Shown: positions 748 through 13,610, numbered from the stretch's first letter. The stretch is 13,610 nucleotides of DNA from Candidatus Aenigmatarchaeota archaeon (GCA_016219485.1 JACRMX010000023.1:1-13610); one strand, 5' to 3'. Numbers and translations: made by a program. The notes: generated from the letters alone by a model not told the origin.

Positions 748-757
748 AATCTTCACT

Positions 758-1165
758 TCACTCTCGGTGATCAACTAGCCCAAACCTCTTTCCATAAATT
801 CTCTTTCTTGTTGTTATCGCACCCGAGTATTTCGGCTTCTGAGGCACACTGGACCAGTTCGCAGGGTTTCTTAGCATTTTCGCATACTTAGGCGAGGGCA
901 TAAGCGATTGTGAAAGCGGGTTAAGATTCTTCTCTCTGCCTTCTTTTTTCTTAGCCATATTCCTTTCATTGGCCTGCACCCTCTCCTCATACCGCTGCCG
1001 CATATACATCAATTTCATTCTCACATTATCGCGCCATTTCTCAATTCTTCTTCTCATTTCAAGGTTGATTATTCTTCGCGGCTTTTCTTTTCTCCCTAAG
1101 CGAATCGAACTAAGGCTTCTCCTGCCCGTACTCCCCTTTCCTATGTCTGAAGACCTGTCAGCCAT
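758..1165 (-). CDS. Small, highly basic Arg/Lys-rich protein (135 aa) of unknown function, co-operonic with gvpF/gvpG.
   Basis: ATG at 1163-1165 is preceded by GAGGTGA (rc of 1169-1175), a strong SD-like site. It begins 9 nt after the gvpG stop. Composition is extreme R/K/E (e.g. RRRIEKWRDNVRMKLMYMRQRYEERVQANERNMAKKKEGREK). No family recognised. Confidence 0.5.
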   Translation of the reverse strand: MADRSSDIGKGSTGRRSLSSIRLGRKEKPRRIINLEMRRRIEKWRDNVRMKLMYMRQRYEERVQANERNMAKKKEGREKNLNPLSQSLMPSPKYAKMLRNPANWSSVPQKPKYSGAITTRKRIYGKRFGLVDHRE

Positions 1166-1174
1166 GCTATCACC

Positions 1175-1468
1175 TCATAACAATAGACCTGTGCTAAACT
1201 GGCCTATGTTAATATCATTTACCCTCTGTGCTATTCTTAATTTCTCTGCCAGCTCTGAAGTTCTCTTTTTATACTCTTCTCTTGGCAATTCTCCAAGTTC
1301 GTATAGTAATGCAATCTCCTTTATTTCGTTCTGTGTTTTTTTCAAAGGATATAATTCCTGCAAGGAATTTTTATGTACAGCACGAAAGCTCATCATGATA
1401 AGATTCGGCAGAGGTTCGAAACCAGCCAGGCTTAACGGTAATAAAAATACATCGTCTATGACAAACAT
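1175..1468 (-). CDS. gvpG: Gas vesicle protein GvpG. The ORF track extends to 1519 with a GTG; the likely true start is the ATG at 1466-1468.
   Basis: MFVIDDVFLLPL... at the N-terminus and ...LYELGELPREEYKKRTSELAEKL fit the GvpG family pattern. The ATG at 1466-1468 overlaps the gvpF TAA (TAATG) and is preceded by GGAGGAGAAGG (rc of 1471-1481). Position directly after gvpF is the canonical one. Confidence 0.65.
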   Translation of the reverse strand: MFVIDDVFLLPLSLAGFEPLPNLIMMSFRAVHKNSLQELYPLKKTQNEIKEIALLYELGELPREEYKKRTSELAEKLRIAQRVNDINIGQFSTGLLL

Positions 1469-2124
1469 TACCTTCTCCTCCCCATTATTCTTATATCCAC
1501 GAAATTGTACGGGGGCCACGGCCCGGAATATTTAATTTTACATTCTTTGTATTTCTGCCCTAGCCTTTCCACCTCTTCTGAAAATTTCTCTATGTCTCTT
1601 TTGTCAACCAAAAATGATTTGTTGTAAAGCAACCTGTCAGAAAACAGCTCGCCTCTTCGAACTTCGACGACAATCCTGTCCAAAACTGCAAAATCCTCTT
1701 CTTTTACAGCTTGGGTCATTTCTTGTGGAATACCCGTGTCTAAAGGAATGTCTTCTTTTACATCTTTACCTTCTTTTGGGGCAACAACCTTCACACCGAG
1801 CTCTATTTTATTGTCTATTAGTCTGAGGCTCCTTTTTAGAATGGGATAAACATTCCTCATTGTGTTTACCAGAATGCCTTTTGTTCTGAATACCATCCCA
1901 AATGCTACTGGCAAAACTGTATGCTCTTTCAGAAGACATAGCTCAACATCCTTGTGCCTTGCCACGTTGTCATCAGTGGGCTCGTAATCTTTTAGCGGAA
2001 CCTCGCTGGCTATGGCGCATAAATCATGATACGGCAGAGCATAAGGCCTGCCGCCTTCTATACCCTCTTCAGGAAACCCGTTTAGTTTGGTTCTGTTTAT
2101 TATGCAGTAGAGATATTCAGCCAT
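1468..2124 (-). CDS. gvpF: Gas vesicle protein GvpF (GvpF/GvpL family).
   Basis: N-terminal EYLYCII (YxYG-like) and C-terminal FSDRLLYNKSFLVD...YSGPWPPYNFVDIRIMG closely match haloarchaeal GvpF (FTDRLIINKSYLVD...YTGPWPPYNFVDIHIG). The ATG at 2122-2124 lies 2 nt after the stop of the upstream regulator gene. Confidence 0.9.
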   Translation of the reverse strand: MAEYLYCIINRTKLNGFPEEGIEGGRPYALPYHDLCAIASEVPLKDYEPTDDNVARHKDVELCLLKEHTVLPVAFGMVFRTKGILVNTMRNVYPILKRSLRLIDNKIELGVKVVAPKEGKDVKEDIPLDTGIPQEMTQAVKEEDFAVLDRIVVEVRRGELFSDRLLYNKSFLVDKRDIEKFSEEVERLGQKYKECKIKYSGPWPPYNFVDIRIMGRRR

Positions 2125-2126
2125 GG

Positions 2127-3143
2127 CTATTCCTTCTTTTCATAGAGCAAAGATATGCTTTCCACGCCCTGTATGTTCGAGCGTAGGAACATGTTCAGGA
2201 AATTCTTTGCCTGCATGTGATCGTTTAGCATACGGGTTATCCGTTCTCTATCAATAACTGTGTATATCCTTACCTTCTCGAATCCGAGCTTGCTCTGTAG
2301 AAGACCTTCCTTTTCAAGCTTATGTAGCAGCGGGTATAGCGTGCCTGAAGAAAGCAAAACATGAAAGTTATCGTATATTCTCTTTTTTATATTAATTCCG
2401 CATATAGGCTCTTTGGAAACCATAGCAAGAATAATCGTCTTCAATTCGTCTTTCACAAATTTTTCAAAAAAGCCGTTGGTGGTATTTGCTAAAGAGGGTC
2501 CTGTGTCTAGCATATTATTGTCCTTGATTATAATGGCCTTAGAGTGCTTCTCTACTATTCTCCTACAATCGTCCTTGCCTAATTTGGTGATGTCGTACAT
2601 GCAGAGTACAGCGTCGCAATGCAATTTGCTGAGAACTTTTTCCCTCTCTTCGTAATTGAGAAAGCTTTCAGCATTATTAAACCCTATCTTTTTCCTTTTG
2701 TGTACAACCTCATGTTTTAGCGTTTTCGTCGGCTTTGGCTCCAGTGACCTGACCTGTATAGGAGAAGTGCAATCTATTATTATTGTGCCAAAGTCGCCAT
2801 TTCCACTCTTCTTCCCTTCGCCCCCCCCCCTCTCCAACCAGAAAAATTTATTAATGTTCTCTATGGAAGGGTTGATTATTGTCAGTTTTCCAACTTTATA
2901 GTCTATTAGGATTTCCCTTACCTTTTCTAAATTCTCGTCTGTAATCAAAAGGGCATTAGTATTTCTGCCGGACAAGAACTGGACGTAAATTTTATATTTG
3001 TCCGTTTCTGGTGTATATAAATATAAAATATGCCCATTCCCGGACAAGAGATGATTCGTAGATTCGTTAATATTGTCAAAGGTTACTAAATGCTCATTGC
3101 ACAACTTATTTTCTGATGCCCACATATTTTCCAATGCCCACAC
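2127..3143 (-). CDS. Fused transcriptional regulator: N-terminal MEDS-like sensory domain plus C-terminal PadR-type winged helix. Start is either GTG 3143 or ATG 3125.
   Basis: C-terminus has the PadR signature GTLYPLLHKLEKEGLL. The N-terminal ~200 aa has MEDS-like motifs (HILYLY...E, DAVLCMYDITKL...H). The stop is 2 nt before the gvpF ATG, so translation looks coupled. It contains a G10 tract encoding Gly-Gly-Gly. Confidence 0.6.
   Translation of the reverse strand: MWALENMWASENKLCNEHLVTFDNINESTNHLLSGNGHILYLYTPETDKYKIYVQFLSGRNTNALLITDENLEKVREILIDYKVGKLTIINPSIENINKFFWLERGGGEGKKSGNGDFGTIIIDCTSPIQVRSLEPKPTKTLKHEVVHKRKKIGFNNAESFLNYEEREKVLSKLHCDAVLCMYDITKLGKDDCRRIVEKHSKAIIIKDNNMLDTGPSLANTTNGFFEKFVKDELKTIILAMVSKEPICGINIKKRIYDNFHVLLSSGTLYPLLHKLEKEGLLQSKLGFEKVRIYTVIDRERITRMLNDHMQAKNFLNMFLRSNIQGVESISLLYEKKE
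2821..2830. repeat. C10/G10 homopolymeric tract inside the regulator CDS.
   Basis: cccccccccc at 2821-2830. The minus strand reads AGG GGG GGG GGC, giving R-G-G-G in the ORF (WLERGGGEGKK). This is very unusual in the AT-rich sequence here. Confidence 0.95.
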
Positions 3144-3429
3144 CCCATGTCTTGCAATTCATTAACAAAATATTGCAGAGAGAATATCGAAATTTGACTC
3201 GAAAAAATGATTCATATATTTAATTGTGAAAGATGGTATATATAGTTTTTCCAGACGCATTTCCTGTGTCGAACATCGATACGAAATACGACTCTGCATA
3301 TCAGCTTAATAAGTGAACCAACAATTCGTGAAAAGATTTCCTGCGGTTTTTAAGGGACAAAATACCTAATGTAAAGAGTTTACCTGTTGGCTTTTATTAC
3401 TAGCTAAGGCAAATGCCGGCTAGAAGAAA

Positions 3430-3714
3430 TTATTTTTCTTCTTCAGAATGCGTATAAGGTACGCCGCGTCTTCTTGTATTAAGTCTTCTATAGCTTAGAA
3501 TTTTATTGCCACCCTCAGTGATAACAACCTCGTATTCTCCTATCAAATCTTGGCTGCTTGGAACAGCTCTTCTTTCCAGCATCTCAATATTAATCTGCCA
3601 ATTTTTTCCAACCTGCTTGGCGCTTATAATACCGAGCGATTCTTTCTTCAGCGTATCTTTCATCAGGCTGCTTGCCATTTCATTAATTTTAACAAGTTCG
3701 TTCATAAAAATCAC
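3430..3714 (-). CDS. Small hypothetical protein (91-94 aa) ending the gvpA-gvpN operon. Start is GTG 3714 overlapping the upstream stop, or ATG 3705.
   Basis: ORF MIFMNELVKINEMASSLMKDTLKK...YEVVITEGGNKILSYRRLNTRRRGVPY. Start-stop overlap or 5-nt spacing with the paralog gene. No family recognised. Confidence 0.45.
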   Translation of the reverse strand: MIFMNELVKINEMASSLMKDTLKKESLGIISAKQVGKNWQINIEMLERRAVPSSQDLIGEYEVVITEGGNKILSYRRLNTRRRGVPYTHSEEEK

Positions 3715-4058
3715 GGAATGTAAACATAGTCGTTTTCGAGTCTTACTTGTGCGCCAATCCAGTCTTTCAGCGACCCCTTCACATTATAGCTTTCCAGATT
3801 CTCTACATTGAAATAATATTTTAGGAATTGCGCCAGCTTATTCCTTCTGAACTGACCAGCCTTGCTAAAAGCCTTGGGGTCAAAGCTACCATCAGCTTTT
3901 AGGCATGTAAAAAACATCTCTTTTATCTCCTTGTCAGCAGTTTTGACTTTTATGATAATAACATCAGTATCATTTCCAATTCTCTTAGGCTTCTTCTTCC
4001 ATAGGTCGTAGACGCTGTATAGCTTTGCCTCTTTGATAAGTCCGTGGTTTGTTATCAT
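3711..4058 (-). CDS. Hypothetical protein, paralog 2 of a tandem pair (115 aa).
   Basis: Clearly similar to the 4144-4500 product: both share a KLY(D/S)VYDLWKKKP...DTD.I..KVK....EIKE.FFTCLK.DG.F. K..SK....RNKLA.FL.YYF...E.YN.K....DW.G..V pattern. ATG at 4056-4058. Confidence 0.5.
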   Translation of the reverse strand: MITNHGLIKEAKLYSVYDLWKKKPKRIGNDTDVIIIKVKTADKEIKEMFFTCLKADGSFDPKAFSKAGQFRRNKLAQFLKYYFNVENLESYNVKGSLKDWIGAQVRLENDYVYIP

Positions 4059-4143
4059 GAATTAAATTCGGCCAAAAGGTTTATAAAACTTCTTTTTACA
4101 TATCGGAATTCGACATACATAAAAAAACTTGTTGCTATGGGGA

Positions 4144-4500
4144 TTATTGCTTTTTAACAGTAAGGGGAATAAATATTCTATCGTCCTTTATTTGTACACG
4201 TCGACCTTTCCAGTCCTTTATATTTTCCTTTAGATTATACTCCTCTGGGTTTGTGTCAAAATAGTACATGAGAAATCGTGCAAGCTTATTTCTCATGGCG
4301 GCACTTCTTTTGCTTGGGGTTTTTGTTGAAAAGGTTCCATCCCCTTTCAGACAGGTGAAGAATGTTTCTTTTATTTCTTTGTTTCCGCTCTTCACTTTTA
4401 CTACTATAGCGTCTGTGTCATTGAAAGCGACCTGGCGTGGTTTCTTCTTCCATAAGTCGTATACATCATATAATTTAGCATCAACAATAACAGCATCCAT
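4144..4500 (-). CDS. Hypothetical protein, paralog 1 of a tandem pair. The ORF track starts at TTG 4512; the likely start is ATG 4498-4500.
   Basis: Paralogous to the 3711-4058 product (see that entry). The ATG at 4498-4500 is preceded by GGGTG (rc of 4506-4510), which is SD-like. No family recognised. Confidence 0.5.
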   Translation of the reverse strand: MDAVIVDAKLYDVYDLWKKKPRQVAFNDTDAIVVKVKSGNKEIKETFFTCLKGDGTFSTKTPSKRSAAMRNKLARFLMYYFDTNPEEYNLKENIKDWKGRRVQIKDDRIFIPLTVKKQ

Positions 4501-4545
4501 CAAAACACCCAATTTCTTAATATCTTAATAGCTGAAAACATTACA

Positions 4546-4950
4546 TTATATGTAAACGACCTCAGGTCTTGGTATGCTGGGCGAGAATGGCATCCTCCTG
4601 CCACCCCATTTCCATGATCTCTTATCCCATCTCACCAATTTCTTATCAAACCCAGAAAGTTTGGCATTCCAGTTTGAAGCGTAGATGACCTCCCTTCTTC
4701 TCCACCGGCTCTGCCATTTGAGTGCTCTCTTTGCCATTCTTGCTTCTGATCTTTCTGCCCTTCTATCCCACTTCAAGGCAAGCTTATTTGCACGCAAATC
4801 CCATTTTATACTCCAAGAAGAAACCTTTGCCTTGTAGCCTGCTTCATATTTTACTCTTTTAGCTAGCCATTTTGTGCTTATCCTGGCATTCTTGGCATCC
4901 TGCTTTAAATGCCTCATTTCAATTTTTCTTGCTAATCTATTTTGCAGCAT
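4546..4950 (-). CDS. Very basic Trp/Lys/Arg-rich repetitive protein (134 aa) immediately downstream of gvpN.
   Basis: The ATG at 4948-4950 is 2 nt after the gvpN TAA (TAATTATG). The sequence has repeated W-x3-W / KW(D/Q) elements: WSIKWDLRANKLALKWDRRAE...ALKWQSRWRRRE...LVRWDKRSWKWGGRR. No family recognised. Confidence 0.5.
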   Translation of the reverse strand: MLQNRLARKIEMRHLKQDAKNARISTKWLAKRVKYEAGYKAKVSSWSIKWDLRANKLALKWDRRAERSEARMAKRALKWQSRWRRREVIYASNWNAKLSGFDKKLVRWDKRSWKWGGRRMPFSPSIPRPEVVYI

Positions 4951-4952
4951 AA

Positions 4953-5978
4953 TTATAACATTTTTTGAATTCGCTCCTTTATCAATAATCTTTTTTTGGC
5001 TACATCATCAAAACCTAAGAATTTTGATGACATGGCATCAACACATACTTCTTCGAGATAATCTTTACCAAAACCGTTAGTTGCCTGTAAGGCCTGCCCG
5101 ATCATTATTGCTATCCTTGTTCCAGGTTTTTCTACACCGCCTAAAATGTTTCGCAGTTCCCTTACTACATCGACAATCTTCTCAGCCCGCGCTTTCGGCA
5201 GGCCCGAATGAGCTTGAACTATCTTTACCTCTGTATCCCTGTTGTAATAATCCATATGTATTGTTGCAATCCTGTCTAGCAATGCATCCTGCGGCTTGTG
5301 GACGCCTGCGTACTCCATATTATTTGAAGTCAGCAACAATGAGAAATCCGGGTGAACTTTGATGTACCTATCTTCGCCGAACTTAGTTGGCAGTTCCAAT
5401 ACACCCTCTTCCAGAACAGAAAGCAGGATGTTGTTTGCCTCAGGCCTGCTCCTTGAGAATTCATTATAAATTAATGTATAGCCATACTGGCACGCAAGTG
5501 TCAGAGGATTAGAAACCCATCTTGCTTCCATCGTATCTTTATCCTTGAAGACATTGTGAATAAATTTATCCCTTATGGTGGTCATCTCTATCTTTGAATA
5601 GCCGCCGATCAGGTTAGTGGTATTAATGGCTTCATCACCATTAACCCATACAGAAGGCTTTCCGAGCAAATTGGCAGCCTGCAAGGCTAGTGCAGTTTTC
5701 CCGCATCCTGTAGGACCAATAATGTGTACAGGATAGCCAGTCTTTAGCCATAGGAGGATTTTGCCTATATACCTTTTGACTTCGTCTGTCTCAATAAAAT
5801 TTTTCGGCACTGGTGACAAGAATTTTGCTTCGATATCTTCCCTTACTGTAGCAAGCTGGACTTCTCTGACATCTTCCTGTTCGCGTTGTCTAGTAAGTAT
5901 TGTAAGCTTTTTCTCAGCTATGGCTTGGTGAACAGCTCCACCTCTAACTTTTCGCGGATGTTCTGGAACATATTTCAT
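4953..5978 (-). CDS. gvpN: Gas vesicle protein GvpN (AAA+ ATPase).
   Basis: Walker A GPTGCGKT, overall AAA+ layout, ~340 aa, and a position downstream of gvpA. The ATG at 5976-5978 is preceded by AAGAGGA (rc of 5983-5989). Confidence 0.88.
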   Translation of the reverse strand: MKYVPEHPRKVRGGAVHQAIAEKKLTILTRQREQEDVREVQLATVREDIEAKFLSPVPKNFIETDEVKRYIGKILLWLKTGYPVHIIGPTGCGKTALALQAANLLGKPSVWVNGDEAINTTNLIGGYSKIEMTTIRDKFIHNVFKDKDTMEARWVSNPLTLACQYGYTLIYNEFSRSRPEANNILLSVLEEGVLELPTKFGEDRYIKVHPDFSLLLTSNNMEYAGVHKPQDALLDRIATIHMDYYNRDTEVKIVQAHSGLPKARAEKIVDVVRELRNILGGVEKPGTRIAIMIGQALQATNGFGKDYLEEVCVDAMSSKFLGFDDVAKKRLLIKERIQKML

Positions 5979-6125
5979 ATCAGAATCCTCTTATTTTATT
6001 GTAACTTTACCCCTACATCTTTGCTTCTAGATGTGTTCATCCGGCTTCCTACCATTGTATCGTTAGTTGGATACCCTGCGAGCCTAGTGGCGTTGAACAT
6101 GCTCATAAAAAATAAAAGCAGGCGA

Positions 6126-6497
6126 TTAGCCCCAAAAATTCTTTATGTACTCTTGCAGTGTCGTGGCTTGATAGTTCTGGATTTTCGTTGCGAAATTGTT
6201 AATCTTTGTCACAACCTTTCTTGAACCTGCGTTTATCTCTCTTACTGCGGCTTTATTTACCTTTTCCTGTTCTTTTATTGTCTGCTGAAATAATGCGATT
6301 TTGTTGTGCACTTCCTGCACGCCTTTGTACATATTTGCAGCTGCTGCAGCATTCTCTTTTTCCTGCGCTCGTATATCATCCACTAACTTGCTCACGCTTG
6401 TCGCCATAACTCGAACACCCGCTTGCATTGTCTTATAGGTTTCTCTAATCGCTGCCTGTTTTGCTCTAACGCTCCCTGCTACAAGTGGATCAGCCAT
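6126..6497 (-). CDS. Helical Ala/Lys/Gln-rich protein (123 aa) with ~33-residue periodicity, between gvpA and gvpN. Candidate GvpC/GvpO-like accessory protein.
   Basis: The ATG at 6495-6497 is preceded by AGGTGA and lies 13 nt after the gvpA stop. Segments KQAAIRETYKTMQAGVRVMATSVSK and KAAVREINAGSRKVVTKINNFATK are 66 residues apart (2 x 33), with a weaker middle copy (AAAAANMYKGVQEV...). The family assignment is uncertain. Confidence 0.55.
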   Translation of the reverse strand: MADPLVAGSVRAKQAAIRETYKTMQAGVRVMATSVSKLVDDIRAQEKENAAAAANMYKGVQEVHNKIALFQQTIKEQEKVNKAAVREINAGSRKVVTKINNFATKIQNYQATTLQEYIKNFWG

Positions 6498-6510
6498 TTA
6501 ATCACCTGCC

Positions 6511-6735
6511 TTAAGCTTTAGCAGGTGCTGCGATGGCCGCTTGCTCAACCTTTGTTATCTCTTCTGCGTAGTGCAGGTATGTGTCAACGCTTGCCACTAC
6601 AACTCTCGCTTCTATAGTGACTATCTCTATTCCCACCAAGTTTACTCTTGCCCATGCATCTACAACCAAACCCTTGTCAAGGATTCGGTCGATAACTTCT
6701 GCAAGACTTGCTGTATCTGGCGCTTGATTTACCAT
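6511..6735 (-). CDS. gvpA: Gas vesicle structural protein GvpA.
   Basis: [45 protein letters not shown] is the hallmark GvpA core. 74 aa. The ATG at 6733-6735 is preceded by GAGGTG. Confidence 0.95.
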
Positions 6736-6760
6736 ATTTTCTACACCTCATATTTTTATT

Positions 6761-6768
6761 TTATATAA
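6761..6768 (-). promoter_or_regulatory. TATA-like box (TTATATAA) about 26-33 nt upstream of the gvpA ATG.
   Basis: AT-rich TATA-like element at the expected archaeal distance upstream of gvpA. It implies a very short leader. Confidence 0.3.
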
Positions 6769-6896
6769 GTTGCCCCCAATTCCTTCTGCAATTAAATGAT
6801 GCGTCTGCATCACTTTATTTAATGCAGTATAAAATTGCACAACCCTTTTAATTATATTGCAATCCGTTCAATATAAACATAAGCAAAAAATCGATG

Positions 6897-6919
6897 TCCG
6901 TATCGGATTTCGATACGCA
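6897..6919. promoter_or_regulatory. Inverted repeat CGTATCG-gattt-CGATACG in the gvpA upstream region.
   Basis: Seen directly. A related CGATACGaaATACGA element lies at 3276-3291, upstream of the regulator gene. Confidence 0.3.
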
Positions 6920-7192
6920 TAATCTGTGAGTTCTCTGTAAGCATTCCTATGGAAAGTTTATGCGATCTTTAGACTCTTTTGTCTTGAACGTTTTGCCTCT
7001 TCATCTCATTAAGATAAAGTATAAAAATCTGCCAGATACTTTATCTTATGCATCATGCTCAAAGACCGAAGGTCTTTGGCACACCGCGGAAGCAAAGCTT
7101 CTGCGAGTGAATTCCTCAGAAAATTCATTCCAAAAGAATTTGCTTGTCTGGCATATCCTATCTTGATAGCCTCTCTAGAACCCTGTCTGAAA

Positions 7193-7227
7193 ATTTTAAA
7201 AATATATCATCCCAAATATTTTTAAAA
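7193..7227. repeat. Perfect 13-bp AT-rich inverted repeat ATTTTAAAAATAT / ATATTTTTAAAAT with a 9-nt spacer.
   Basis: Seen directly: attttaaaaatat-atcatccca-aatatttttaaaat. Confidence 0.6.
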
Positions 7228-7330
7228 TCATATTCTCACAGCAGTTGAATCTTAACGTCAGTTGTTTGATTAACAGAACCGTTCCTGATGCATCCTCACA
7301 CATCGCATAAGAACACTGATAAAACTTTTT

Positions 7331-7901: not shown

Positions 7902-8378
7902 TTATTTTTCTGCAGAAAATTTCTCTGCAAGCAATGCTGCATTTTCCTTCAGCCTTTTTATTATATCCTTTATTTTGATCTTGGATGCTTTTCTCATCTC
8001 CGGGACGAGGTTTTTGTGATAAAATTCCCCGAATGTCTCGTTGATTATACCTTCGCTGTTTCTGAAAGCAACCCTTAGAAACCCGTACATAGTAATAACC
8101 AGCGGCTTCTCAGCGTTGTTGTCGCCGTCTATTGAAACTTCCACGACAATCTTTGTGTGCTTGTCTATTATTTTAATTATAGAAAATTTAATTTTGATTA
8201 TGTTTTCACGTCCTCCGGCAAGGACCTCATTTTCCTTCTCCACCATTCTTCCGAGTGTCTTTGCCATGTCCATAAATTCAAGCGCAAAAACATATGGGCT
8301 ATTCACCATAACCGAGATGCTCTCATCTGCAAATGTTTCTGTAATTATGCGCATAGCGTCAGCCTCTGCATTCTTCAC
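7902..8378 (-). CDS. Hypothetical protein (150-158 aa). Alternative start at ATG 8352-8354 would avoid the overlap with the upstream gene.
   Basis: ORF MKNAEADAMRIITETFADESISVMVNSPYVFALEF... with a mixed charged/hydrophobic character. No family recognised. Confidence 0.45.
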   Translation of the reverse strand: MKNAEADAMRIITETFADESISVMVNSPYVFALEFMDMAKTLGRMVEKENEVLAGGRENIIKIKFSIIKIIDKHTKIVVEVSIDGDNNAEKPLVITMYGFLRVAFRNSEGIINETFGEFYHKNLVPEMRKASKIKIKDIIKRLKENAALLAEKFSAEK

Positions 8379-8901
8379 ATAGCCATGAGCCTGATACCTT
8401 TTTCAGGTTATCGGAATAGTTTCCGCATGATTCGCACTGGTCAAAGAGAACAGGCTCTTCTTTGCGGTCAAGACTGCCTATTTTCATTTTTTCGAGCATA
8501 ATTTCAAAAAGAGCCGGCTCTACCCTCAGGATATCATTGTTCGTAATTATTCCAATGAGCTTTTTGTTTTTAAAAACAAGCAGCTTTTCTATGCCTTTCT
8601 GCGTAAGCAGGCGGGCTGCTTCTTCCAGTGTTTTGTTTGGCGAGATCGTAACCGGATTTTTTGTCATTATGTCGGAAACCTTTTTTCCTTTTCTGCTGGC
8701 AACATGCTTGTAAACTATATCCGAAGGCGTGAGTATGCCAGCGACTCCTTTTTTCCCGACAACGACAACTGAGCCTATTTTGTTTTTCTTCAGCATCTCA
8801 GCTGCTTTTTTGATGCTATCGCCAGGAGAAATGGTTTTTACGCTCCTGTTCATAACTTCCTTGACGAGTGCGCTGTACCTCATGATAGATATATGGTACA
8901 T
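8359..8901 (-). CDS. CBS-domain pair protein with a C-terminal C4 zinc ribbon.
   Basis: Two CBS-like units (VMNRSVKTISPGDSIKKAAEMLKKNKIGSVVVV..GILTPSDIV and DIMTKNPVTISPNKTLEEAARLLTQKGIEKLLVF..IGIITNNDIL), followed by CESCGN...CEEC. Confidence 0.7.
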   Translation of the reverse strand: MYHISIMRYSALVKEVMNRSVKTISPGDSIKKAAEMLKKNKIGSVVVVGKKGVAGILTPSDIVYKHVASRKGKKVSDIMTKNPVTISPNKTLEEAARLLTQKGIEKLLVFKNKKLIGIITNNDILRVEPALFEIMLEKMKIGSLDRKEEPVLFDQCESCGNYSDNLKKVSGSWLCEECRG

Positions 8902-8970
8902 GCCTAATAAAAAGATTAGTGAGGTTTGAAAAAACCTTATCCTTTAGTTTGCAGAGAATTGTATATATAT

Positions 8971-9087
8971 AAAAGTTAGAAACTTTTCCTTGTATTATTA
9001 GAAGGTTTTTTTCTGCTTTCCCCTCGATATTAGGGGGAAAGAGAAAAAACGTACGGGCATGGAAAAACAGTGCTTTTTCCAAATGTT
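8971..9087. repeat. Composite palindromic intergenic repeat, copy 1 (modules C-A-B), upstream of hjc.
   Basis: C is aaaagttagaaactttt (7-bp inverted repeat). A is gaaggtttttttctGCTTTCCCCTcgatattAGGGGGAAAGagaaaaaacgtacggg. B is CATGGAAAAAcagtgcTTTTTCCAAATGtt. It matches 9592-9735 almost base-for-base apart from an extra B module there. Confidence 0.7.
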
Positions 9088-9145
9088 ATCCTTTTTTATT
9101 ACAGAACCTAAAGGCTCTCCAATAAAAACTAACGCCTTCTATTAT

Positions 9146-9523
9146 ATGCTCATGGTAAAAACTTATAAGAAAGGCTATACAGCTGAAAGGGAAATTGTTC
9201 ATACCCTGTATAAAATGGGGTATGCTGTTATACGGACCCCGCGTTCAGGCCGCATATGCCTGCCAAGCCCTGATATTATTGCTGCAAAACATGGTAAAAT
9301 TATTGTTCTCGAATGCAAGTCACGCAAGCGCGCTTTTAACGTGCCTGCAGAGCAGGTGGAAGAGCTGAGAGAATGGGAAAAAAGAGCAGGAGCAACAGCT
9401 TATATCGCATGGAAGGTTGCACACAAAGGGTGGTTCTTTTTCCCCATGTCTGTTGTAGAAGAAAACAGGGGAAATATTGGAAAAAGAATGCCGCAAAAAG
9501 CCATAGGCATTGACGATATCTGA
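9146..9523 (+). CDS. hjc: Holliday junction resolvase Hjc (archaeal PD-(D/E)xK nuclease). The ORF track start at 9059 lies inside the repeat and is probably not used.
   Basis: KKGYTAEREIVHTLYKMGYAVIRTPRSG...PDIIAAKHGKIIVLECKSRK matches the Hjc core (ERE..., PD, E.K). About 125 aa, typical Hjc size. ATG at 9146 or 9152. Confidence 0.8.
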   Translation: MLMVKTYKKGYTAEREIVHTLYKMGYAVIRTPRSGRICLPSPDIIAAKHGKIIVLECKSRKRAFNVPAEQVEELREWEKRAGATAYIAWKVAHKGWFFFPMSVVEENRGNIGKRMPQKAIGIDDI

Positions 9524-9591
9524 AACAGATAAATCAAAAATAAGAGTTTTTGAAAACCCCTTATCCCGCAGAGAATTGAATAGATATGAGA

Positions 9592-9735
9592 AAAAGTCAG
9601 AAACTTTTTCTATACATGGAAAAGGCTGTGCCTTTTCCAATGTTTTGCCAGAAGGTTTTTTTCTCTTTCCCCTCAATATTAGGGGGAAAGAGAAAAAAAC
9701 CGTATGGGATTGGAAAAACGTGGTTTTTCAAAGTC
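9592..9735. repeat. Composite palindromic intergenic repeat, copy 2 (modules C-B-A-B'), downstream of hjc.
   Basis: aaaagtcagaaactttttc (C). Then ttctataCATGGAAAAGGctgtgCCTTTTCCAATGtt (B, 9609-9644). Then gaaggtttttttctctttcccctcaatattagggggaaagagaaaaaaaccgtatggg (A, 9651-9706). Then a degenerate B: ttGGAAAAACgtgGTTTTTCaa. Confidence 0.7.
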
Positions 9736-9755
9736 CTCAAGCTTTGTATGTAATG

Positions 9756-10553
9756 TCAGAAAACTGCCTCAAGCCAGGCGCCAATCAATATCAGCGTCTC
9801 TGCAAGAGCAAGATAGATGAGCGCGTCTTTTACAACAGCGTTGAATGCTATTGAGCCGTATTTTTCCCGCAAAAGCCCTATTGAAAGTATTCCGCCAGCC
9901 AGGCCTGCAAGAAAATAGCCGGCGATCTCCGGCACGCCATGAAGCGCTATTGCGCCCAGGCCCAGCGGAACGCCATACAGGTATGCCTGCATGGTATGCA
10001 TGCCCTCTCCTATAAGCGACCTTATGTTAAAGCCAAGATAAACTGCTATGATAGAAGCGTTCCATGCCAGTATAAATACAGCGCCTGCACCGAACATGAT
10101 TGAAAGTATAAAGCTGAGTATCATGGTCTGCGAATTATTTATAAAATATTTCAGGAAAAGGTAGCTGCTGTCGACCGTGGTCCCTGATACCATGTTTTTA
10201 AGCGTGTTTGTCTGCAGGGAAAATACATTCATATCCGGGGCAAAAACAAAAATAAATGCAAGCGAGAATATTACCCCGAGAAAAAATGCTGAATAAACGT
10301 ATATCGCGCAGATGTGCCGGGTAAATATATTACCGCTCGGGTTTTTGTCCCTTCGCTCTTCTATGACGAATATGCGCTGGAAAAATGGCACAAAAAGTAT
10401 TGTTATAAACGTTATTGTGAGCAGAGATGCTTCTGAGGGAAATATGCGCCATGCAAAAAATGATGCTATCAGAGAATACACGAAAGCAACAACAAATATG
10501 CGCCATGGATCCTTTTCTGCGGATTTCGGGTTTATCAGTGATTCAAGAACCAT
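9756..10553 (-). CDS. Integral membrane protein, SpoIIM/DUF95-like.
   Basis: Multi-pass hydrophobic protein with a C-terminal HGVPEIAGYFLAGLAGG segment resembling the conserved HG(I/V)xE(I/L)PA motif of the SpoIIM/DUF95 family. Family call is tentative. Confidence 0.5.
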   Translation of the reverse strand: MVLESLINPKSAEKDPWRIFVVAFVYSLIASFFAWRIFPSEASLLTITFITILFVPFFQRIFVIEERRDKNPSGNIFTRHICAIYVYSAFFLGVIFSLAFIFVFAPDMNVFSLQTNTLKNMVSGTTVDSSYLFLKYFINNSQTMILSFILSIMFGAGAVFILAWNASIIAVYLGFNIRSLIGEGMHTMQAYLYGVPLGLGAIALHGVPEIAGYFLAGLAGGILSIGLLREKYGSIAFNAVVKDALIYLALAETLILIGAWLEAVF

Positions 10554-10679
10554 GATATCTATTTATTTTCCGGTTTAAATATAGTTTTAAAAAACATGCC
10601 CTTAAATTTATTTTATAGCAATACAAGGAAATAAACAGTATATTACTTCCTTGTTTGCTATATATTAGAAAAGCAATGC

Positions 10680-10718
10680 TTTTCTATACATGGAAATTCC
10701 TTCAGAATTTCCAATGTG
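10680..10718. repeat. Module B repeat, copy 3, in the divergent promoter region upstream of the HMGCS operon.
   Basis: ttttctataCATGGAAATTccttcagaAATTTCCAATGtg. It shares the ttttctatacatgg...ccaatgt frame with 9607-9644 but carries a different, still complementary, stem. Confidence 0.65.
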
Positions 10719-10768
10719 TGAAACAAGTTGTATAATGTCCAAATTCTTTACTTGTTTCACTATAAAAG
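10718..10768 (+). promoter_or_regulatory. Perfect 11-bp inverted repeat (GTGAAACAAGT-N21-ACTTGTTTCAC) abutting a TATAAAAG box about 40 nt upstream of the HMGCS ATG. Candidate operator plus promoter.
   Basis: Arms at 10718-10728 and 10750-10760 are exact reverse complements. tataaaag at 10761-10768 is a TATA-like box. Confidence 0.4.
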
Positions 10769-10803
10769 CCTTTTCGGTTTATTGATTTCATCAGGTTGTT
10801 TAT

Positions 10804-11847
10804 ATGGCTGGTATAGTAGGATATGGCGCATACGTGCCGCGGCTTAGGATAACGGTCGACGAAATAGCGCGCATATGGGGCCAGGACCCTGAGAGCATAA
10901 AAAGCGGGCTTGGCGTGAGTGAGAAAAGCGTGCCTGAGCATGATGAAGACACTGTTACCATAAGTGTTGAAGCTGCAAAAAATGCTATTGCGCGCGCAGC
11001 TATTGACCCAAAGGACATAGGAGCAGTATACGTGGGCTCTGAGAGCCATCCGTACACAGTAAAGCCTTCTGGCACAATAGTTGTTGATAGCCTAGGCATC
11101 GGGCCTGATGTTTCTGTTGCTGACACAGAGTTTGCATGCAGGGCTGGAACAACAAACATATTCATATGCATGGGGCTTGTAATGTCTGGCATGATAAAAT
11201 ATGGCCTTGCTATTGGCGCAGACACATCGCAGGCCAGGCCTGGTGATGCCCTTGAATACACAGCTGCTGCAGGCGGAGCTGCATTTGTAATAGGAAAGGA
11301 CAACGTGGCTGTAAAAATAAAAGACGCATATTCATTTGTAACAGACACTTCTGATTTCTACAGAAAGGAAGGCGAGATATATCCGACACATGCAGGAAGG
11401 TTCACAGGTGAGCCTGCTTATTTCAGGCATGTTATTGCTGCAACAAAAACCGTGCTTGAAAAAAACAGTCTTAAGCCGCAGGATTTTGACTTCTGCGTAT
11501 TCCACATGCCCAATGGAAAATTTCCCGTAAGAGTTGCAAAGATGCTTGGCTTTGAAATGAAACAGCTGGAAGATTCGCTTGTGGTTAAAAAAATAGGAAA
11601 TACCTATTCAGGCTCAAGCCTGCTTGGTCTTTCGTCTGTTTTGGATAAAGCAAAGCCTGACCAGCGCATACTTATTACATCATATGGCTCAGGCGCAGGC
11701 TCGGACTCATTTATAATGGAAACAACAGACCTCATAGAAGAAATTCAGAACAGGGCGCCAAAAACAGACAGCTACATAGATGCTAAAAACAAAGAATACA
11801 TTGACTATGGTACATATGTAAAGATACGAAAAAAATTGAAGATGTGA
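10804..11847 (+). CDS. Archaeal-type hydroxymethylglutaryl-CoA synthase.
   Basis: N-terminal GIVGYGAYVPRLRI, active-site EFACRAGT and 347 aa fit archaeal HMGCS. Position is in an operon with thiolase and DUF35. Confidence 0.88.
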   Translation: MAGIVGYGAYVPRLRITVDEIARIWGQDPESIKSGLGVSEKSVPEHDEDTVTISVEAAKNAIARAAIDPKDIGAVYVGSESHPYTVKPSGTIVVDSLGIGPDVSVADTEFACRAGTTNIFICMGLVMSGMIKYGLAIGADTSQARPGDALEYTAAAGGAAFVIGKDNVAVKIKDAYSFVTDTSDFYRKEGEIYPTHAGRFTGEPAYFRHVIAATKTVLEKNSLKPQDFDFCVFHMPNGKFPVRVAKMLGFEMKQLEDSLVVKKIGNTYSGSSLLGLSSVLDKAKPDQRILITSYGSGAGSDSFIMETTDLIEEIQNRAPKTDSYIDAKNKEYIDYGTYVKIRKKLKM

Positions 11848-11867
11848 TATTAGATGAGTGTGATGCT

Positions 11868-13007
11868 ATGAAAAAGATCGCGATCATTGGCGGTTACCAG
11901 ACTGCATTCGGCGAGCTGTGGGAAAAATCACTCGGAGACTTAATAGAAGAGGCAGGCATAGGCGCGATCAGCGATTCCGGAATAGAGAAAAATGATGTTA
12001 ACTGCCTCTATCTTGGAAACATGGCAGCAGGCCGTTTTGTAGGGCAGGAGCATGTGGCTGCATTTGCTGCTGACTGCCTCTCTCTTAAGGTGCCTGCTAT
12101 ACGGTGCGAGGCTGCCTGCGCATCAGGTGCTCTTGCTTTTTCACAGGCGTGCATAAAAATATTGAGTGGAAAGGCTGAAACTGCGCTTGTTATCGGCGCA
12201 GAGAAAATGACTGATGTTATAGGTTCAGAGGCTGTAACAACGCTGATGGGAGCAGGGGACAGTGAATGGGAATCGAGCATAGGGCTGACATTTGCAGGGC
12301 TCTATGCACTAATGGCACGCGCGCATATGCACAGGTATAAAACAACAAGAGAGCAGCTTGCAATGGTCGCTGTTAATAACCATAAAAACGGGCAGAAAAA
12401 TGAAAAGGCGCAGTTCCGCTTTCCTATCACAGTGGATGATGTAATAAAATCTGCTGTCATAGCAGACCCCCTGCGGCTTCTTGACTGTTCTCCGATAACA
12501 GACGGAGCAGCATCAGTGATAGTTGCGAGCGAGGATTATGTGCAAAAGAAAAAAATAGAAAATCCTGTCTGGGTTCTTGGCAGCAGCCATGGAAGCGACA
12601 GCATAGGCCTCCACGACCGCGCTGACATAACAGAGATGGCTTCAGTTAAAAAAGCTGCAAAGGATGTTTTCGATGAATCTGGATTGAAACACAAGGACAT
12701 TGATGTTGTTGAACTGCATGACTGTTTTACTATAAATGAAATAATAGGCCTGGAAAGCATGGGATTCTGCGAGAAAGGAAAAGGCGGAACATTTGTGGAA
12801 GAGTCTGAATTACCAACAAACACAACAGGCGGGCTGAAATCATGCGGCCATCCTGTAGGAGCCACAGGCGTCAGGCAGATAATAGATATTTACAGGCAGC
12901 TCAAAGGCGTATCTATAAATCAGGTTAAAGGCGCAGAGCACGGGCTTGCTCTGAATGTTGGCGGCAGCGGAGCAACAGCCATTATACATATTCTTGGAGT
13001 TGAATAA
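11868..13007 (+). CDS. Archaeal acetyl-CoA C-acetyltransferase (thiolase). The ORF track starts at GTG 11844; the likely start is ATG 11868 (MKKIAIIGG).
   Basis: IAIIGGYQTAFGE, catalytic CEAACASGALAF, C-terminal GGLKSCGHPVGATG. The HMGCS TGA overlaps the upstream GTG frame. Confidence 0.88.
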   Translation: MKKIAIIGGYQTAFGELWEKSLGDLIEEAGIGAISDSGIEKNDVNCLYLGNMAAGRFVGQEHVAAFAADCLSLKVPAIRCEAACASGALAFSQACIKILSGKAETALVIGAEKMTDVIGSEAVTTLMGAGDSEWESSIGLTFAGLYALMARAHMHRYKTTREQLAMVAVNNHKNGQKNEKAQFRFPITVDDVIKSAVIADPLRLLDCSPITDGAASVIVASEDYVQKKKIENPVWVLGSSHGSDSIGLHDRADITEMASVKKAAKDVFDESGLKHKDIDVVELHDCFTINEIIGLESMGFCEKGKGGTFVEESELPTNTTGGLKSCGHPVGATGVRQIIDIYRQLKGVSINQVKGAEHGLALNVGGSGATAIIHILGVE

Positions 13008-13008
13008 A

Positions 13009-13383
13009 ATGGAGTCAGTTCCGATTAAATGGAGAAGGCAGAGGCACAGGTACATGCTTACCGGCTCAAAATGCAGCTGCGGCGGTGTTTTTTATCCGCC
13101 CAGAAATTTATGCAGCTGTGGAAAAAATACAGAAGATGCTGTGCTCAGCGGTGAGGGAAAAATAATCTCATACACAGAAATACATACTGCGCCAGAAGGA
13201 TTTGAAGCAGAGACGCCATACACAATAGCACTCATAAAACTAAAAGACGGACCTGTTATACCAGCACATATTGTTGGCAGAGGCGCTGAAATAGGGAAAA
13301 AAGTGGCCCCTGTTTTCAGGAAAATGGGAGAAGGCGGCAAAAAAGGCGTTATTGCCTACACAACAAAATTTGTCGTCGTGTAA
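13009..13383 (+). CDS. DUF35 OB-fold/zinc-ribbon protein, the scaffold partner of archaeal thiolase/HMGCS. The ORF track starts at 12955; the likely start is ATG 13009 (MESVPIKW).
   Basis: CSCGGVFYPPRNLCSCG zinc ribbon followed by an OB-fold-like C-terminal half. The ATG is 1 nt after the thiolase TAA, with a GGAG upstream. Confidence 0.82.
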   Translation: MESVPIKWRRQRHRYMLTGSKCSCGGVFYPPRNLCSCGKNTEDAVLSGEGKIISYTEIHTAPEGFEAETPYTIALIKLKDGPVIPAHIVGRGAEIGKKVAPVFRKMGEGGKKGVIAYTTKFVVV

Positions 13384-13490
13384 TCACCTGGTTTTATCAT
13401 CGGTCTATCATTATATGGTTTTATTTGGTGATTATCAATTAACTGCCCCTAGCACATTAAATTAATTTCTTAAACATTAGAATTGCTTTG

Positions 13491-13575
13491 CAATTCTATG
13501 CATGGGAAAAATAAAGTTTTTCCCAATGTGAAAATATTTTCTGTTTTCCCCTACTTGAGCGAGGGAAAACGAAAA
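13491..13575. repeat. Palindromic intergenic repeat, copy 4 (modules B-A), downstream of DUF35.
   Basis: ttctatgCATGGGAAAAAtaaagTTTTTCCCAATGtg (B), then tctGTTTTCCCCtacttgagcgAGGGAAAACgaaaa (an A-like hairpin). Confidence 0.6.
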
Positions 13576-13610
13576 TGTTATGAGCCACAAGAAAGTCACT
13601 TCGTGACAAA

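What the first reader, a model, noticed from the sequence alone, without database searches (positions are those of the whole stretch)
8971..13575. Modular palindromic intergenic repeat family (hairpin modules C, A, B) at four intergenic sites, with compensatory stem changes
Seen directly. Module B occurs four times: 9058-9087, 9615-9644, 10689-10718 and 13500-13529. A fifth, degenerate copy is at 9709-9733. The frame is conserved (ttctatRCATGG ... CCAATGTK), but the stem sequence differs between copies and stays self-complementary each time. The stem pairs are GGAAAAA/TTTTTCC, GGAAAAGG/CCTTTTCC, GGAAATT/AATTTCC and GGGAAAAA/TTTTTCCC. Covariation of that kind argues that the hairpin, as an RNA fold or a dyad protein site, is under selection and is not just drifting repeat sequence. 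Module A (T-run, then CTTTCCCCT-N7-AGGGGGAAAG, then A-run) is a longer near-perfect palindrome and is present two to three times. Module C (AAAAGTT-aga-AACTTTT) is present twice. The modules combine in different orders: C-A-B, C-B-A-B' and B-A. Copies lie in divergent promoter regions (upstream of hjc and of HMGCS) and also in convergent or terminator regions. That spread does not fit a simple terminator or a single operator. It fits better a REP/MITE-like mobile palindromic element family or a family of small structured RNAs. I do not recognise it as a described archaeal repeat family.
Basis: seen in the sequence. Interest (0 to 1): 0.78.

Follow-up and report, generated by a model that had tools for sequence, protein, structure and literature searches.

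The report
Modular hairpin repeats between archaeal genes
An uncultured Aenigmarchaeota archaeon carries a real family of short hairpin-forming DNA repeats that were inserted into several gaps between genes next to its probable replication origin; they resemble bacterial REP/MITE-type selfish repeats and are a new example of a known kind, not a new kind of system.

Summary
Three exact copies and one variant copy of the B hairpin, two to three A palindromes and the C hairpins lie at the stated coordinates, all on the + strand and far above chance.

Three corrections apply:
- The two spacers flanking hjc are one roughly 190-nt composite element, X, present twice.
- The "ttctat" frame is the 3' arm of a second, covarying hairpin (C type, AGAA..TTCT). 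The true unit is a C-B twin hairpin of about 52 nt.
- A further hairpin cluster lies upstream of gvpA.

Covariation is strong: 96% of cells are paired, 10 of 21 pairs show double changes, and 0 of 500 shuffles reach the score.

The window is a whole contig of an Aenigmarchaeota metagenome-assembled genome (MAG). Sister MAGs have short, "empty" spacers at the same three positions, yet carry X and C-B copies at other loci. The modules are therefore lineage-specific insertions.

There are no Rfam, plasmid or phage matches. One phage hit is probably coincidence.

Best reading: a REP/BIME- and MITE-like mosaic repeat family. No transposase partner was found.

Notable twist: one C-B copy sits exactly where relatives have their origin recognition box upstream of orc1/cdc6 and shares part of its core sequence.

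The parts
8918..9113 (.). Composite element X, copy 1. It runs left terminal hairpin, C, A, then a B variant. It is inserted between the divergent CBS-domain gene and hjc.
   Evidence: It is 79.5% identical over 127 nt to copy 2. The same spacer is 78 nt in sister MAG L161 and 250 nt here.
8974..8990 (+). C hairpin, copy 1 (AAAAGTT-aga-AACTTTT). The B that follows it in copy 2 is missing here.
9007..9049 (.). A palindrome, copy 1 (T-run, CTTTCCCC..GGGGAAAG, A-run).
   Evidence: (D1, I1)
9057..9086 (+). B hairpin variant (GCATGGAAAAA..TTTTTCCAAATGT), at the right end of X copy 1.
   Evidence: -10.4 kcal/mol, z -3.1
9545..9745 (.). Composite element X, copy 2. It carries a C-B unit nested inside and lies between the convergent hjc and SpoIIM genes.
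   Evidence: In sister MAGs hjc and SpoIIM overlap or lie 5 nt apart, against 232 nt here. The DNA fold is -46 kcal/mol, z -9.0.
9589..9643 (+). C-B twin hairpin, copy 2 (C 9589-9611, B 9614-9643).
   Evidence: z -5.8; 57.9 bits
9648..9707 (.). A palindrome, copy 2. The arms are 30 nt, with a perfect 19-bp stem at 9654-9701 flanked by T7 and A7 runs.
   Evidence: (I2)
9709..9739 (+). Degenerate B, which is the right terminal hairpin of X (ATTGGAAAAACGTGGTTTTTCAAAGTCC).
   Evidence: It is conserved in L159 at 11100-11130.
10607..10760 (+). Four-hairpin insertion between the SpoIIM and HMGCS promoters: H1 10614-10662, C 10666-10686, B 10688-10717, H4 10718-10760. Its outer 24 nt are imperfect inverted repeats.
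   Evidence: The spacer is 86 nt in L160 and 250 nt here. The fold has z -8.7. The terminal inverted repeat matches 19 of 24. The covariance model scores 72.9 bits.
13478..13529 (+). C-B twin hairpin, copy 4 (C 13478-13498, B 13500-13529). It lies at the position of the origin recognition box of relatives, upstream of the expected orc1/cdc6 gene.
   Evidence: (74 bits)
13535..13577 (.). Diverged A-like palindrome (GTTTTCCC-N12-GGGAAAAC). The contig ends 33 nt later, inside further hairpins.
   Evidence: (D1, 67%)
7010..7228 (.). It holds 13-bp stems at 7010-7048 and 7193-7228 and twin hairpins at 7060-7105.
   Evidence: 22.4 bits. The first hairpin and GAATTTGCTTG are shared with L160 9959-10030.

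Best explanation
The modules are a lineage-restricted family of non-coding, hairpin-forming DNA repeats. They are of the mosaic REP/BIME and MITE kind. They have been inserted or duplicated into at least four intergenic spacers of this Aenigmarchaeota genome.

**Two unit types are clear.**
- A C-B twin hairpin of about 52 nt. Its feet and junction are conserved (AGAA..TTCTAT-RYAT-GGRAA..TTYCC-A-ATRT). Its upper stems and loops vary freely.
- A fold-back element X of 140-200 nt: a terminal hairpin, the long A palindrome, and a second terminal hairpin. X can carry a nested C-B.

**Shown.**
- The repeats are real.
- The hairpins are maintained by compensatory change.
- Sister genomes lack the modules at the same sites.
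- Sister genomes carry homologous units at other sites.

**Inferred.**
- The folded single-stranded or cruciform form, with its conserved foot, is what a trans-acting enzyme recognises when copying the unit. That enzyme could be a Y1/HUH-type or a DDE transposase encoded elsewhere.
- The elements persist because they land between promoters or just after stop codons.
- Their T-runs and A-runs flanking long stems may serve as bidirectional terminators or insulators.
For: - **Above chance.** The repeat and hairpin excess is far above expectation.
- **Covariation in C-B across five copies from three genomes.** 96.2% of cells are paired, against 78% when shuffled. Ten of 21 pairs have changes on both sides. 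The covariation score is 0.60 against 0.23, reached by 0 of 500 shuffles. Slid controls give 0.15 or less.
- **Stable folds.** Every unit folds with z between -3 and -6.6. Whole clusters fold with z between -6 and -9.
- **Empty sites in relatives.** The CBS-hjc spacer is 78 nt against 250 nt here. The hjc/SpoIIM spacer is overlapping or 5 nt against 232 nt. The SpoIIM-HMGCS spacer is 86 nt against 250 nt.
- **Copies at non-orthologous sites.** X and C-B lie at L159 10990-11203, after a 72-aa gene. C-B lies at L160 10050-10099, downstream of PolB.
- **Fold-back structure.** The arms are 30 nt at 87% complementarity. Imperfect terminal inverted repeats match 28/37 in L159 X and 19/24 in the IG3 insert.
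- **Nesting.** C-B sits inside X copy 2 and is absent from X copy 1 and from L159 X.
- **Precedent.** MITEs are known in DPANN archaea (PMC11602168). REP-like palindromes are reported in archaea (PMC12306157).
Against: - No transposase sits near any copy. The only one in about 82 kb of this clade is an ISAzo13 fragment with unrelated ends.
- No clear target-site duplications were found.
- Only five C-B units and three X copies are known, because the source genome could not be searched.
- All C-B units share one orientation, which also matches the neighbouring genes. REP clusters (BIMEs) alternate in orientation.
- The REP tag GTAG/CGTC is absent.
- Part of the repetition (X1/X2) is a local duplication around hjc.
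- The exact B frame occurs in no other GTDB representative genome as a hairpin. Spread beyond this small clade is therefore not shown.
Confidence: 0.5

Rival explanations
1. The units are cis-acting or stand-alone structured RNAs. Examples would be 3'-UTR stabilisers or terminator helpers, 5'-UTR regulators, or small RNAs. On this view the RNA fold is what is selected.
For: - Covariation includes G-U-compatible changes.
- All five C-B units share the orientation of their flanking genes. Four of the five lie downstream of a co-directional gene.
- X begins 10-25 nt after a stop codon in two of its three copies. It also carries T5-T7 runs on both strands.
Against: - Nothing matches in Rfam for the window or the relatives.
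- The conserved bases lie at the stem feet, and the loops vary freely.
- Two clusters lie between divergent promoters, upstream of the TATA boxes that align with those of relatives.
- The units are present or absent among close relatives and sit at different genes.
- There is no consistent promoter or oligo-T after C-B.
- Wobble asymmetry gives no strand signal: 4 G-T against 2 A-C cells. The L160 copy folds better on the other strand (-21.4 against -14.7 kcal/mol).
Confidence: 0.2
2. The C-B units are variant origin recognition boxes, or other Orc1/Cdc6-type binding sites, belonging to an oriC that has been remodelled in this lineage. Each half-site is embedded in its own hairpin.
For: - **Origin in relatives.** In three relatives DUF35 is followed by orc1/cdc6. 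The spacer holds canonical cores TYCYA-N3-GAAAY with a G-string. L159 has 3 against 0.28 expected and L160 has 4 against 0.20, with 0 of 200 shuffles reaching either count.
- **Same register.** Window C-B copy 4 aligns in register with that box, 43-46 nt after a shared CCCCTA motif. CAATTCTA is identical to L159.
- **Similar sequence.** The C-B junction TTCTA-TRCATG-GRAAA resembles TTCTA-CAG-GAAAC.
- **No canonical box here.** The window has no box with canonical spacing in 8900-13610.
- **Proximity in L160.** The L160 hairpin cluster lies about 300 nt from a second box downstream of PolB.
Against: - The half-site spacing is 6-7 nt, not 3.
- There is no G-string.
- All copies point the same way instead of flanking an unwinding element.
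- Copies lie up to 4.6 kb away, in separate spacers.
- A duplex-binding protein does not explain why the variable stem interiors stay complementary.
- Relatives keep their origin without the hairpins.
- The positional match rests on two short anchors that were noticed after the fact.
Confidence: 0.17
3. There is no mobility and no selected function. On this view the spacers grew by local duplication. Their palindromes stay perfect through template switching or quasi-palindrome correction during replication.
For: - X1 and X2 are a local duplication bracketing hjc.
- B is flanked by short direct repeats (CTTTTYC). This fits slippage-type gain or loss.
- The loop of the L159 B copy looks like the inverted loop of window copy 3 (TAAAG against the reverse complement of CTTCA), as in a flip-flop.
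Against: - Homologous units occur at non-orthologous loci in three genomes.
- The foot sequence is conserved across copies whose stems differ completely.
- Local duplication does not explain sharing between MAGs whose HMGCS proteins are only 79-84% identical.
Confidence: 0.1
4. The pattern is a chance resemblance among AT-rich spacers.
For: None, beyond the AT-rich composition.
Against: Shuffle tests. The covariance-model scores are 58-74 bits.
Confidence: 0.01

Closest known systems
Bacterial REP elements and their mosaic clusters (BIMEs), mobilised by RAYT Y1 transposases
   Same: - Both are short imperfect palindromes in intergenic DNA.
- A conserved sequence sits at the foot of the hairpin, and one base is bulged.
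- The upper stems change by compensatory substitution.
- Several motifs are combined in mosaic clusters.
- They are often found just after genes.
   Different: - The conserved tag is not GTAG or CGTC.
- Copies are all in one orientation, not alternating.
- No RAYT was found.
- The host is an archaeon.
- Copy number is unknown.
- The unit is a twin hairpin.
MITEs and fold-back repeats (Correia, ERIC and RUP in bacteria; Sulfolobus SM elements; MITEs reported in DPANN genomes, PMC11602168)
   Same: Element X and the IG3 insert share these features with MITEs:
- They are 140-200 nt long, non-coding and AT-rich.
- They have imperfect terminal inverted repeats and fold back on themselves.
- They sit in intergenic DNA.
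- They show presence/absence differences between close relatives.
- They carry T-runs and TATA-like ends that can affect neighbouring genes.
   Different: - No target-site duplication could be defined.
- No autonomous insertion sequence with the same ends was found.
- The terminal repeats are weak in X copy 2 (10 of 11 nt).
IS200/IS605 ends and their miniature derivatives (PATEs of haloarchaea, PMC3119063)
   Same: - The recognised structures are hairpins with a bulged base.
- A conserved short sequence lies 5' of the hairpin.
- Four of the five C-B units are preceded by AYAT.
- There are no long terminal inverted repeats in C-B.
   Different: - No TnpA or TnpB is nearby.
- The two hairpins abut each other, with no cargo between them.
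- Orientation follows the genes on both sides of the probable origin, not the direction of replication.
Archaeal origin recognition boxes (ORB and mini-ORB)
   Same: - The junction TTCTA..GGAAA resembles the clade's own box.
- One copy lies at the orthologous position upstream of orc1/cdc6.
   Different: - The spacing is 6-7 nt, not 3.
- There is no G-string.
- All copies have the same orientation.
- The copies are dispersed over several spacers.
- The hairpin covariation is not explained by duplex binding.

Membership tests
REP/BIME with RAYT | Short (20-40 nt) imperfect palindrome, repeated in intergenic DNA | tested here: met
   B is 30 nt and C is 19-23 nt. All copies are intergenic.
REP/BIME with RAYT | Conserved GTAG or CGTC tetranucleotide at one end of the palindrome | tested here: not met
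   The foot is TCTAT-RYAT / A-ATRT. There is no GTAG or CGTC. The tag definition is taken from PMC3733652.
REP/BIME with RAYT | Alternating orientation of REPs within clusters | tested here: not met
   All B and C-B copies in the window are on +. The copies in relatives have the same orientation relative to the gene cluster.
REP/BIME with RAYT | A RAYT (Y1 transposase) gene flanked by the same REPs | not testable with these tools
   The source genome could not be reached. None is present in about 82 kb of this clade.
REP/BIME with RAYT | High genome-wide copy number | not testable with these tools
   Only the 13.6-kb contig and about 68 kb of relatives were available.
MITE | Terminal inverted repeats | tested here: inconclusive
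   L159 X matches 28/37, the IG3 insert 19/24, and X copy 2 only 10/11. The whole of X is a fold-back (I2).
MITE | Target-site duplication | tested here: inconclusive
   The boundaries against empty sites are fuzzy. No consistent duplication was seen.
MITE | Small, non-coding, with several copies and insertion polymorphism between relatives | tested here: met
MITE | An autonomous element with the same ends | not testable with these tools
   Only an ISAzo13 fragment with unrelated ends was seen.
IS200/IS605-derived miniature element (PATE) | Subterminal hairpins plus a conserved 5' target or cleavage tetranucleotide, with a TnpA/TnpB partner | tested here: inconclusive
   Hairpins are present, and AYAT lies 5' of four of the five units (read). 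No partner gene was seen.
Origin recognition box | Core TYCYA-N3-GAAAY, as in this clade's own boxes | tested here: not met
   Relatives have 3-4 such cores. C-B units have 6-7 nt spacing, and no canonical core lies in 8900-13610.
Origin recognition box | G-string 3' of the core | tested here: not met
Origin recognition box | Location beside orc1/cdc6 | tested here: inconclusive
   Copy 4 is in register with the box of relatives. However, the cdc6 gene itself lies beyond the contig end, and the other copies are 3-4.6 kb away.
Intrinsic-terminator-like hairpin | Stable stem directly followed by an oligo-T run | tested here: inconclusive
   The A palindrome is flanked by T7 and A7. B and C lack a consistent T-run.
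Any Rfam RNA family | Match at or near the gathering score | tested here: not met
   The window gives only sub-threshold miRNA-hairpin hits on the A palindrome. There are none in the relatives.
Integron attC sites | RYYYAAC / GTTRRRY core sites, co-oriented cassettes and an integrase | tested here: not met
   The core sites are absent from the sequence. The flanked genes are housekeeping genes on both strands.
CRISPR array | Identical repeats at regular spacing | tested here: not met
   The stems differ between copies, and the spacings are 557, 1074 and 2812 nt with genes in between.

The most novel reading that the evidence does not exclude
The twin hairpin may be a derivative of the lineage's own origin recognition box. 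Each half-site (TTCTA and GGAAA) would have acquired a complementary partner, so that it folds into its own hairpin. This ORB-like unit would then have been copied into neighbouring spacers around oriC. It could act as a dispersed, cruciform-forming Orc1/Cdc6 binding site, or as a selfish element that mimics the origin.
Probability: 0.15. Interest if true: 0.75.

Novelty: new member of a known kind. Interest (0 to 1): 0.45.

Why it matters
Short palindromic repeat families are well studied in bacteria and barely characterised in archaea. In the small-genome DPANN lineages, every extra non-coding base needs an explanation. This case is clean: it has covariation, empty sites in sister genomes, and modular nesting. 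It could be used to look for the enzyme that copies such hairpins in archaea.

The repeats also matter in practice. They probably break metagenome assemblies, and this contig ends inside a hairpin cluster where orc1/cdc6 should begin. They also sit in promoter and terminator space of essential genes: the mevalonate-pathway operon, hjc, and probably cdc6.

The resemblance of the conserved foot to the origin recognition box, if real, would link repeat spread to replication-origin biology.

Tried and rejected
**Searches that did not help**
- **Exact-pattern scan of GTDB representative genomes.** It gave 34 single hits, none a hairpin of this family. The source genome was not found.
- **Metagenome scan.** It was capped at 120 rows and swamped by an unrelated high-copy repeat. 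The source was not found.
- **IMG/VR scans.** They gave one distinct hit with the full frame and a GC-rich stem. It lies in a tailed phage with a terminase, portal, capsid protein and endolysin. It is on the strand opposite to the genes. About one such hit is expected by chance, so I rejected it as evidence. The looser pattern returned only chance matches.
- **Exact-protein look-ups for the window's HMGCS and GvpA.** Neither is on record.
- **Plasmid and phage BLAST of X.** No match.
- **Rfam.** Nothing real.

**Readings considered and rejected**
- CRISPR repeats, integron attC sites, H/ACA or C/D sRNAs, K-turns, dif sites and canonical ORBs. See the membership tests.

**Inconclusive lines**
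- Strand inference from wobble pairs was uninformative: 4 G-T against 2 A-C cells.
- The search for target-site duplications at filled-versus-empty sites was inconclusive.
- The covariance model found no further convincing C-B copies in 82 kb. It found only two other twin-hairpin sites, at E of about 0.03-0.05.

Full report
**Source and setting.** The window is an entire 13,610-nt contig of an NCBI MAG labelled Candidatus Aenigmarchaeota archaeon. Its HMGCS, Hjc and GvpN proteins are each on record at 100% identity on a contig of that length. The gene order is as follows:
- a gas-vesicle cluster (1-6735, minus strand);
- a 560-nt spacer, then three small genes;
- a CBS-domain gene (8359-8901, -);
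- hjc (9152-9523, +);
- a SpoIIM-family membrane protein (9756-10553, -);
- the archaeal HMGCS / thiolase / DUF35 operon (10804-13383, +).

In three relatives the DUF35 gene is followed about 240 nt later by orc1/cdc6, a phosphoesterase and PolB. The window therefore ends where cdc6 should begin.

**Check of the observation.**
- The B frame CATGG-N-CCAATG occurs three times on the + strand, against 0.2 expected; 0 of 200 shuffles reach 3.
- TTCTATRCATGG is exact at 9608, 10682 and 13494.
- The A palindrome occurs at 9007-9049 and 9656-9698 (91% identity), with a diverged copy at 13535-13577.
- Perfect hairpins of at least 8 bp are 20-fold enriched in intergenic DNA: 14 against 0.69 expected.

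**Corrections to the observation.**
- The two spacers flanking hjc are two copies of one composite element, which I call X (8918-9113 and 9545-9745; 79.5% identity over 127 nt plus further blocks). The "fifth, degenerate B" and the 9057-9086 B are the right-hand terminal hairpins of these two copies.
- Every canonical B is immediately preceded by a second hairpin of the C type, (T)AGAA-NNNN-loop-NNNN-TTCT(A). Its variable part differs between copies but stays complementary (9589-9611, 10666-10686, 13478-13498). The real unit is a C-B twin hairpin of about 52 nt.
- In the SpoIIM-HMGCS spacer the unit is flanked by two more hairpins (10614-10662 and 10718-10760).
- A further cluster lies at 7010-7228, upstream of gvpA.

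**Covariation.** I aligned five C-B units: three from the window, one from L159 and one from L160. For window copy 2, one A-T pair and two loop bases were removed to keep the register. On that alignment:
- 96.2% of cells form standard pairs, against 78% after shuffling;
- 10 of 21 pairs have changes on both sides;
- the covariation score is 0.60 against 0.23, reached by 0 of 500 shuffles;
- sliding the partners gives 0.15 or less.

With only five related sequences the shuffle control is generous. The slid control and the number of distinct pair types point the same way. Each unit folds far better than its shuffles (z -3 to -6.6), and does so on either strand. Wobble positions give no strand signal (4 G-T against 2 A-C cells).

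**Relatives.** The closest genomes I could reach were:
- GCA_053536615.1, with HMGCS 84% identical (loci L159 and L161);
- GCA_053537175.1, at 79% (L160);
- a JGI contig at 70% (L162).

At the orthologous positions their spacers are short.

| Spacer | Relatives | Window |
|---|---|---|
| CBS-hjc | 78 nt | 250 nt |
| hjc-SpoIIM | overlapping or 5 nt | 232 nt |
| SpoIIM-HMGCS | 86-118 nt | 250 nt |

The flanking promoter-like sequences still align. Yet the same modules occur elsewhere in those genomes:
- L159 10990-11140 is a copy of X lacking the nested C/B part. It is directly followed by a C-B unit (11151-11202) and another twin hairpin.
- L160 10050-10099 is a diverged C-B unit next to a hairpin that is shared with the window's gvpA-upstream cluster.

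The modules are thus gained or lost on a short evolutionary scale, and they sit at different loci in different genomes. That is true for X1/X2 but not for the family.

**Searches elsewhere.**
- The exact B frame is found in no other GTDB representative genome as a hairpin.
- The capped metagenome scan was swamped by an unrelated high-copy repeat.
- One phage carries the full frame around a GC-rich stem. It is a tailed phage with an endolysin, the hairpin is on the opposite strand, and roughly one such hit is expected by chance. I do not count it as evidence.
- Rfam, plasmid and phage collections give nothing.

**Best explanation (confidence about 0.5).** This is a mosaic family of hairpin repeats of the REP/BIME and MITE kind.
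- X and the SpoIIM-HMGCS insert have imperfect terminal inverted repeats and fold back on themselves.
- C-B has conserved feet and free upper stems, as REPs and IS200/IS605 ends do.
- Modules nest within one another.
- Insertions avoid promoters and coding sequence.

Shown: the repeats, the maintained hairpins, the insertion/absence pattern, and sharing between genomes. Inferred: copying by a trans-acting enzyme that recognises the folded foot, and side effects as bidirectional terminators or insulators (T7/A7 around a 19-bp stem). Against this reading: no transposase, no clear target duplications, uniform orientation, no GTAG/CGTC tag, and an unknown copy number.

**Rivals.**
- *RNA elements (about 0.2).* Co-orientation with genes and positions after stop codons fit. 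Against it: no family match, variable loops, placement upstream of conserved TATA boxes, and dispensability in relatives.
- *Origin-related sites (about 0.17).* This emerged from the relatives. Their DUF35-cdc6 spacer holds canonical boxes TYCYA-N3-GAAAY plus a G-string, significantly enriched. Window C-B copy 4 aligns in register with that box, 43-46 nt after a shared CCCCTA motif, and CAATTCTA is identical to L159. However, the half-site spacing is 6-7 instead of 3, there is no G-string, all copies point one way, and duplex binding would not explain the covariation. C-B therefore fails the membership test for a canonical box. A derived relationship remains possible, and it is the most novel reading left open.
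- *Purely mutational palindromes without mobility (about 0.1).* This fits the local duplication and the short direct repeats around B. It does not fit the sharing across genomes.
- *Chance.* This is excluded.

**Novelty and interest.** MITEs are documented in archaea, including DPANN genomes (PMC11602168). REP-like palindromes have been reported in archaeal genomes in a broad survey (PMC12306157). No paper I found describes this family. I rate it a new member of a known kind, of moderate interest (0.45). It is well supported as a real, structured, recently dynamic repeat family. Its mechanism is unproven, and the intriguing link to the replication origin is unconfirmed.

Noticed in passing
window 1-6735: A complete-looking gas-vesicle gene cluster (gvpA 6511-6735, GvpN 4953-5978, GvpF/L 1468-2124, a PadR-domain protein 2127-3143) in an Aenigmarchaeota MAG. 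Close homologues occur in other DPANN MAGs.
   Followed up: partly
window 6736-7295, especially 7010-7228: A 560-nt spacer upstream of gvpA holds another hairpin cluster: 13-bp stems at 7010-7048 and 7193-7228, and twin triloop hairpins at 7060-7105. The first hairpin (AGATAAAGTAT..ATACTTTATCT) and a following GAATTTGCTTG are shared with L160 9959-10030 at a non-orthologous site.
   Followed up: partly
L285 1-690 (reverse strand), the same gvpA-upstream spacer in GCA_053537135.1: This spacer carries a different insert of about 170 nt with nested helices (TTCAAGTTTGCG..CGCAAACTTGAA enclosing further stems). It is followed by two TAAA-loop hairpins. One of them is B-like (GAACATTG..CTGCTGCC-taaa-GGCAGCAG..CAATGTTC). 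There is no Rfam match.
   Followed up: partly
L159 3493-3750, L160 4179-4540, L162 12707-12941: Probable oriC of the relatives, in the DUF35-cdc6 spacer. It holds an ORB with a G-string (for example L159 CAATTCTACAGGAAACCGGGGGGTGGG). A mini-ORB overlaps the cdc6 TATA region (AAATTTAAATAnTTCCATAnGAAATATAC). L159 also has an inverted copy at 3500-3512. The L160 cdc6 gene call probably starts too far upstream, because it contains the ORB.
   Followed up: partly
L160 9640-9675 and L159 about 8858-8895: A second conserved ORB-like element, flanked by G-strings on both sides, lies downstream of PolB (GGGGTCAATTTTTCCAAAGGAAATAAAGGGGT). It may be a second origin or an Orc1 binding site.
   Followed up: no
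window 8918-9113 and 9545-9745: hjc is bracketed by two direct copies of the roughly 190-nt element X. Recombination between them would delete hjc precisely. In L159's genome the hjc-SpoIIM pair is separated from HMGCS.
   Followed up: partly
L035-L038 (for example L036 7005-7037, minus strand): A tailed bacteriophage has the hairpin ACATTGGGGGGC-TTCG-GTCCCCCATGT followed by ATAGAA, between the capsid-module genes. It matches all 19 specified bases of the B frame. I judge this a coincidence.
   Followed up: yes
L040-L158, contigs Ga0049105_*, Ga0209255_* and related: An unrelated high-copy repeat (..ctctaggcaaccgcTTCTATGCATGGCGTAAGGGTCCCAATGTgacaaacccaatctgctggacctgt..) is present on dozens of contigs of a few JGI metagenomes. 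Its nature is unknown.
   Followed up: no
L288 2966-3178 (minus strand): The C-terminal fragment of an ISAzo13-family DDE transposase lies at the end of a contig from a close relative, beside the gas-vesicle cluster. Its end does not resemble the X termini.
   Followed up: partly
window 3711-4058 and 4144-4512: Two adjacent small minus-strand genes of the gas-vesicle cluster are paralogues, with DNA blocks about 75% identical at a 450-nt offset (D5 and D13). They have no Pfam match.
   Followed up: no
window 13595-13607: The contig ends inside yet another small hairpin (GTCAC-ttc-GTGAC), about where cdc6 should start. This suggests the repeats caused the assembly break.
   Followed up: no
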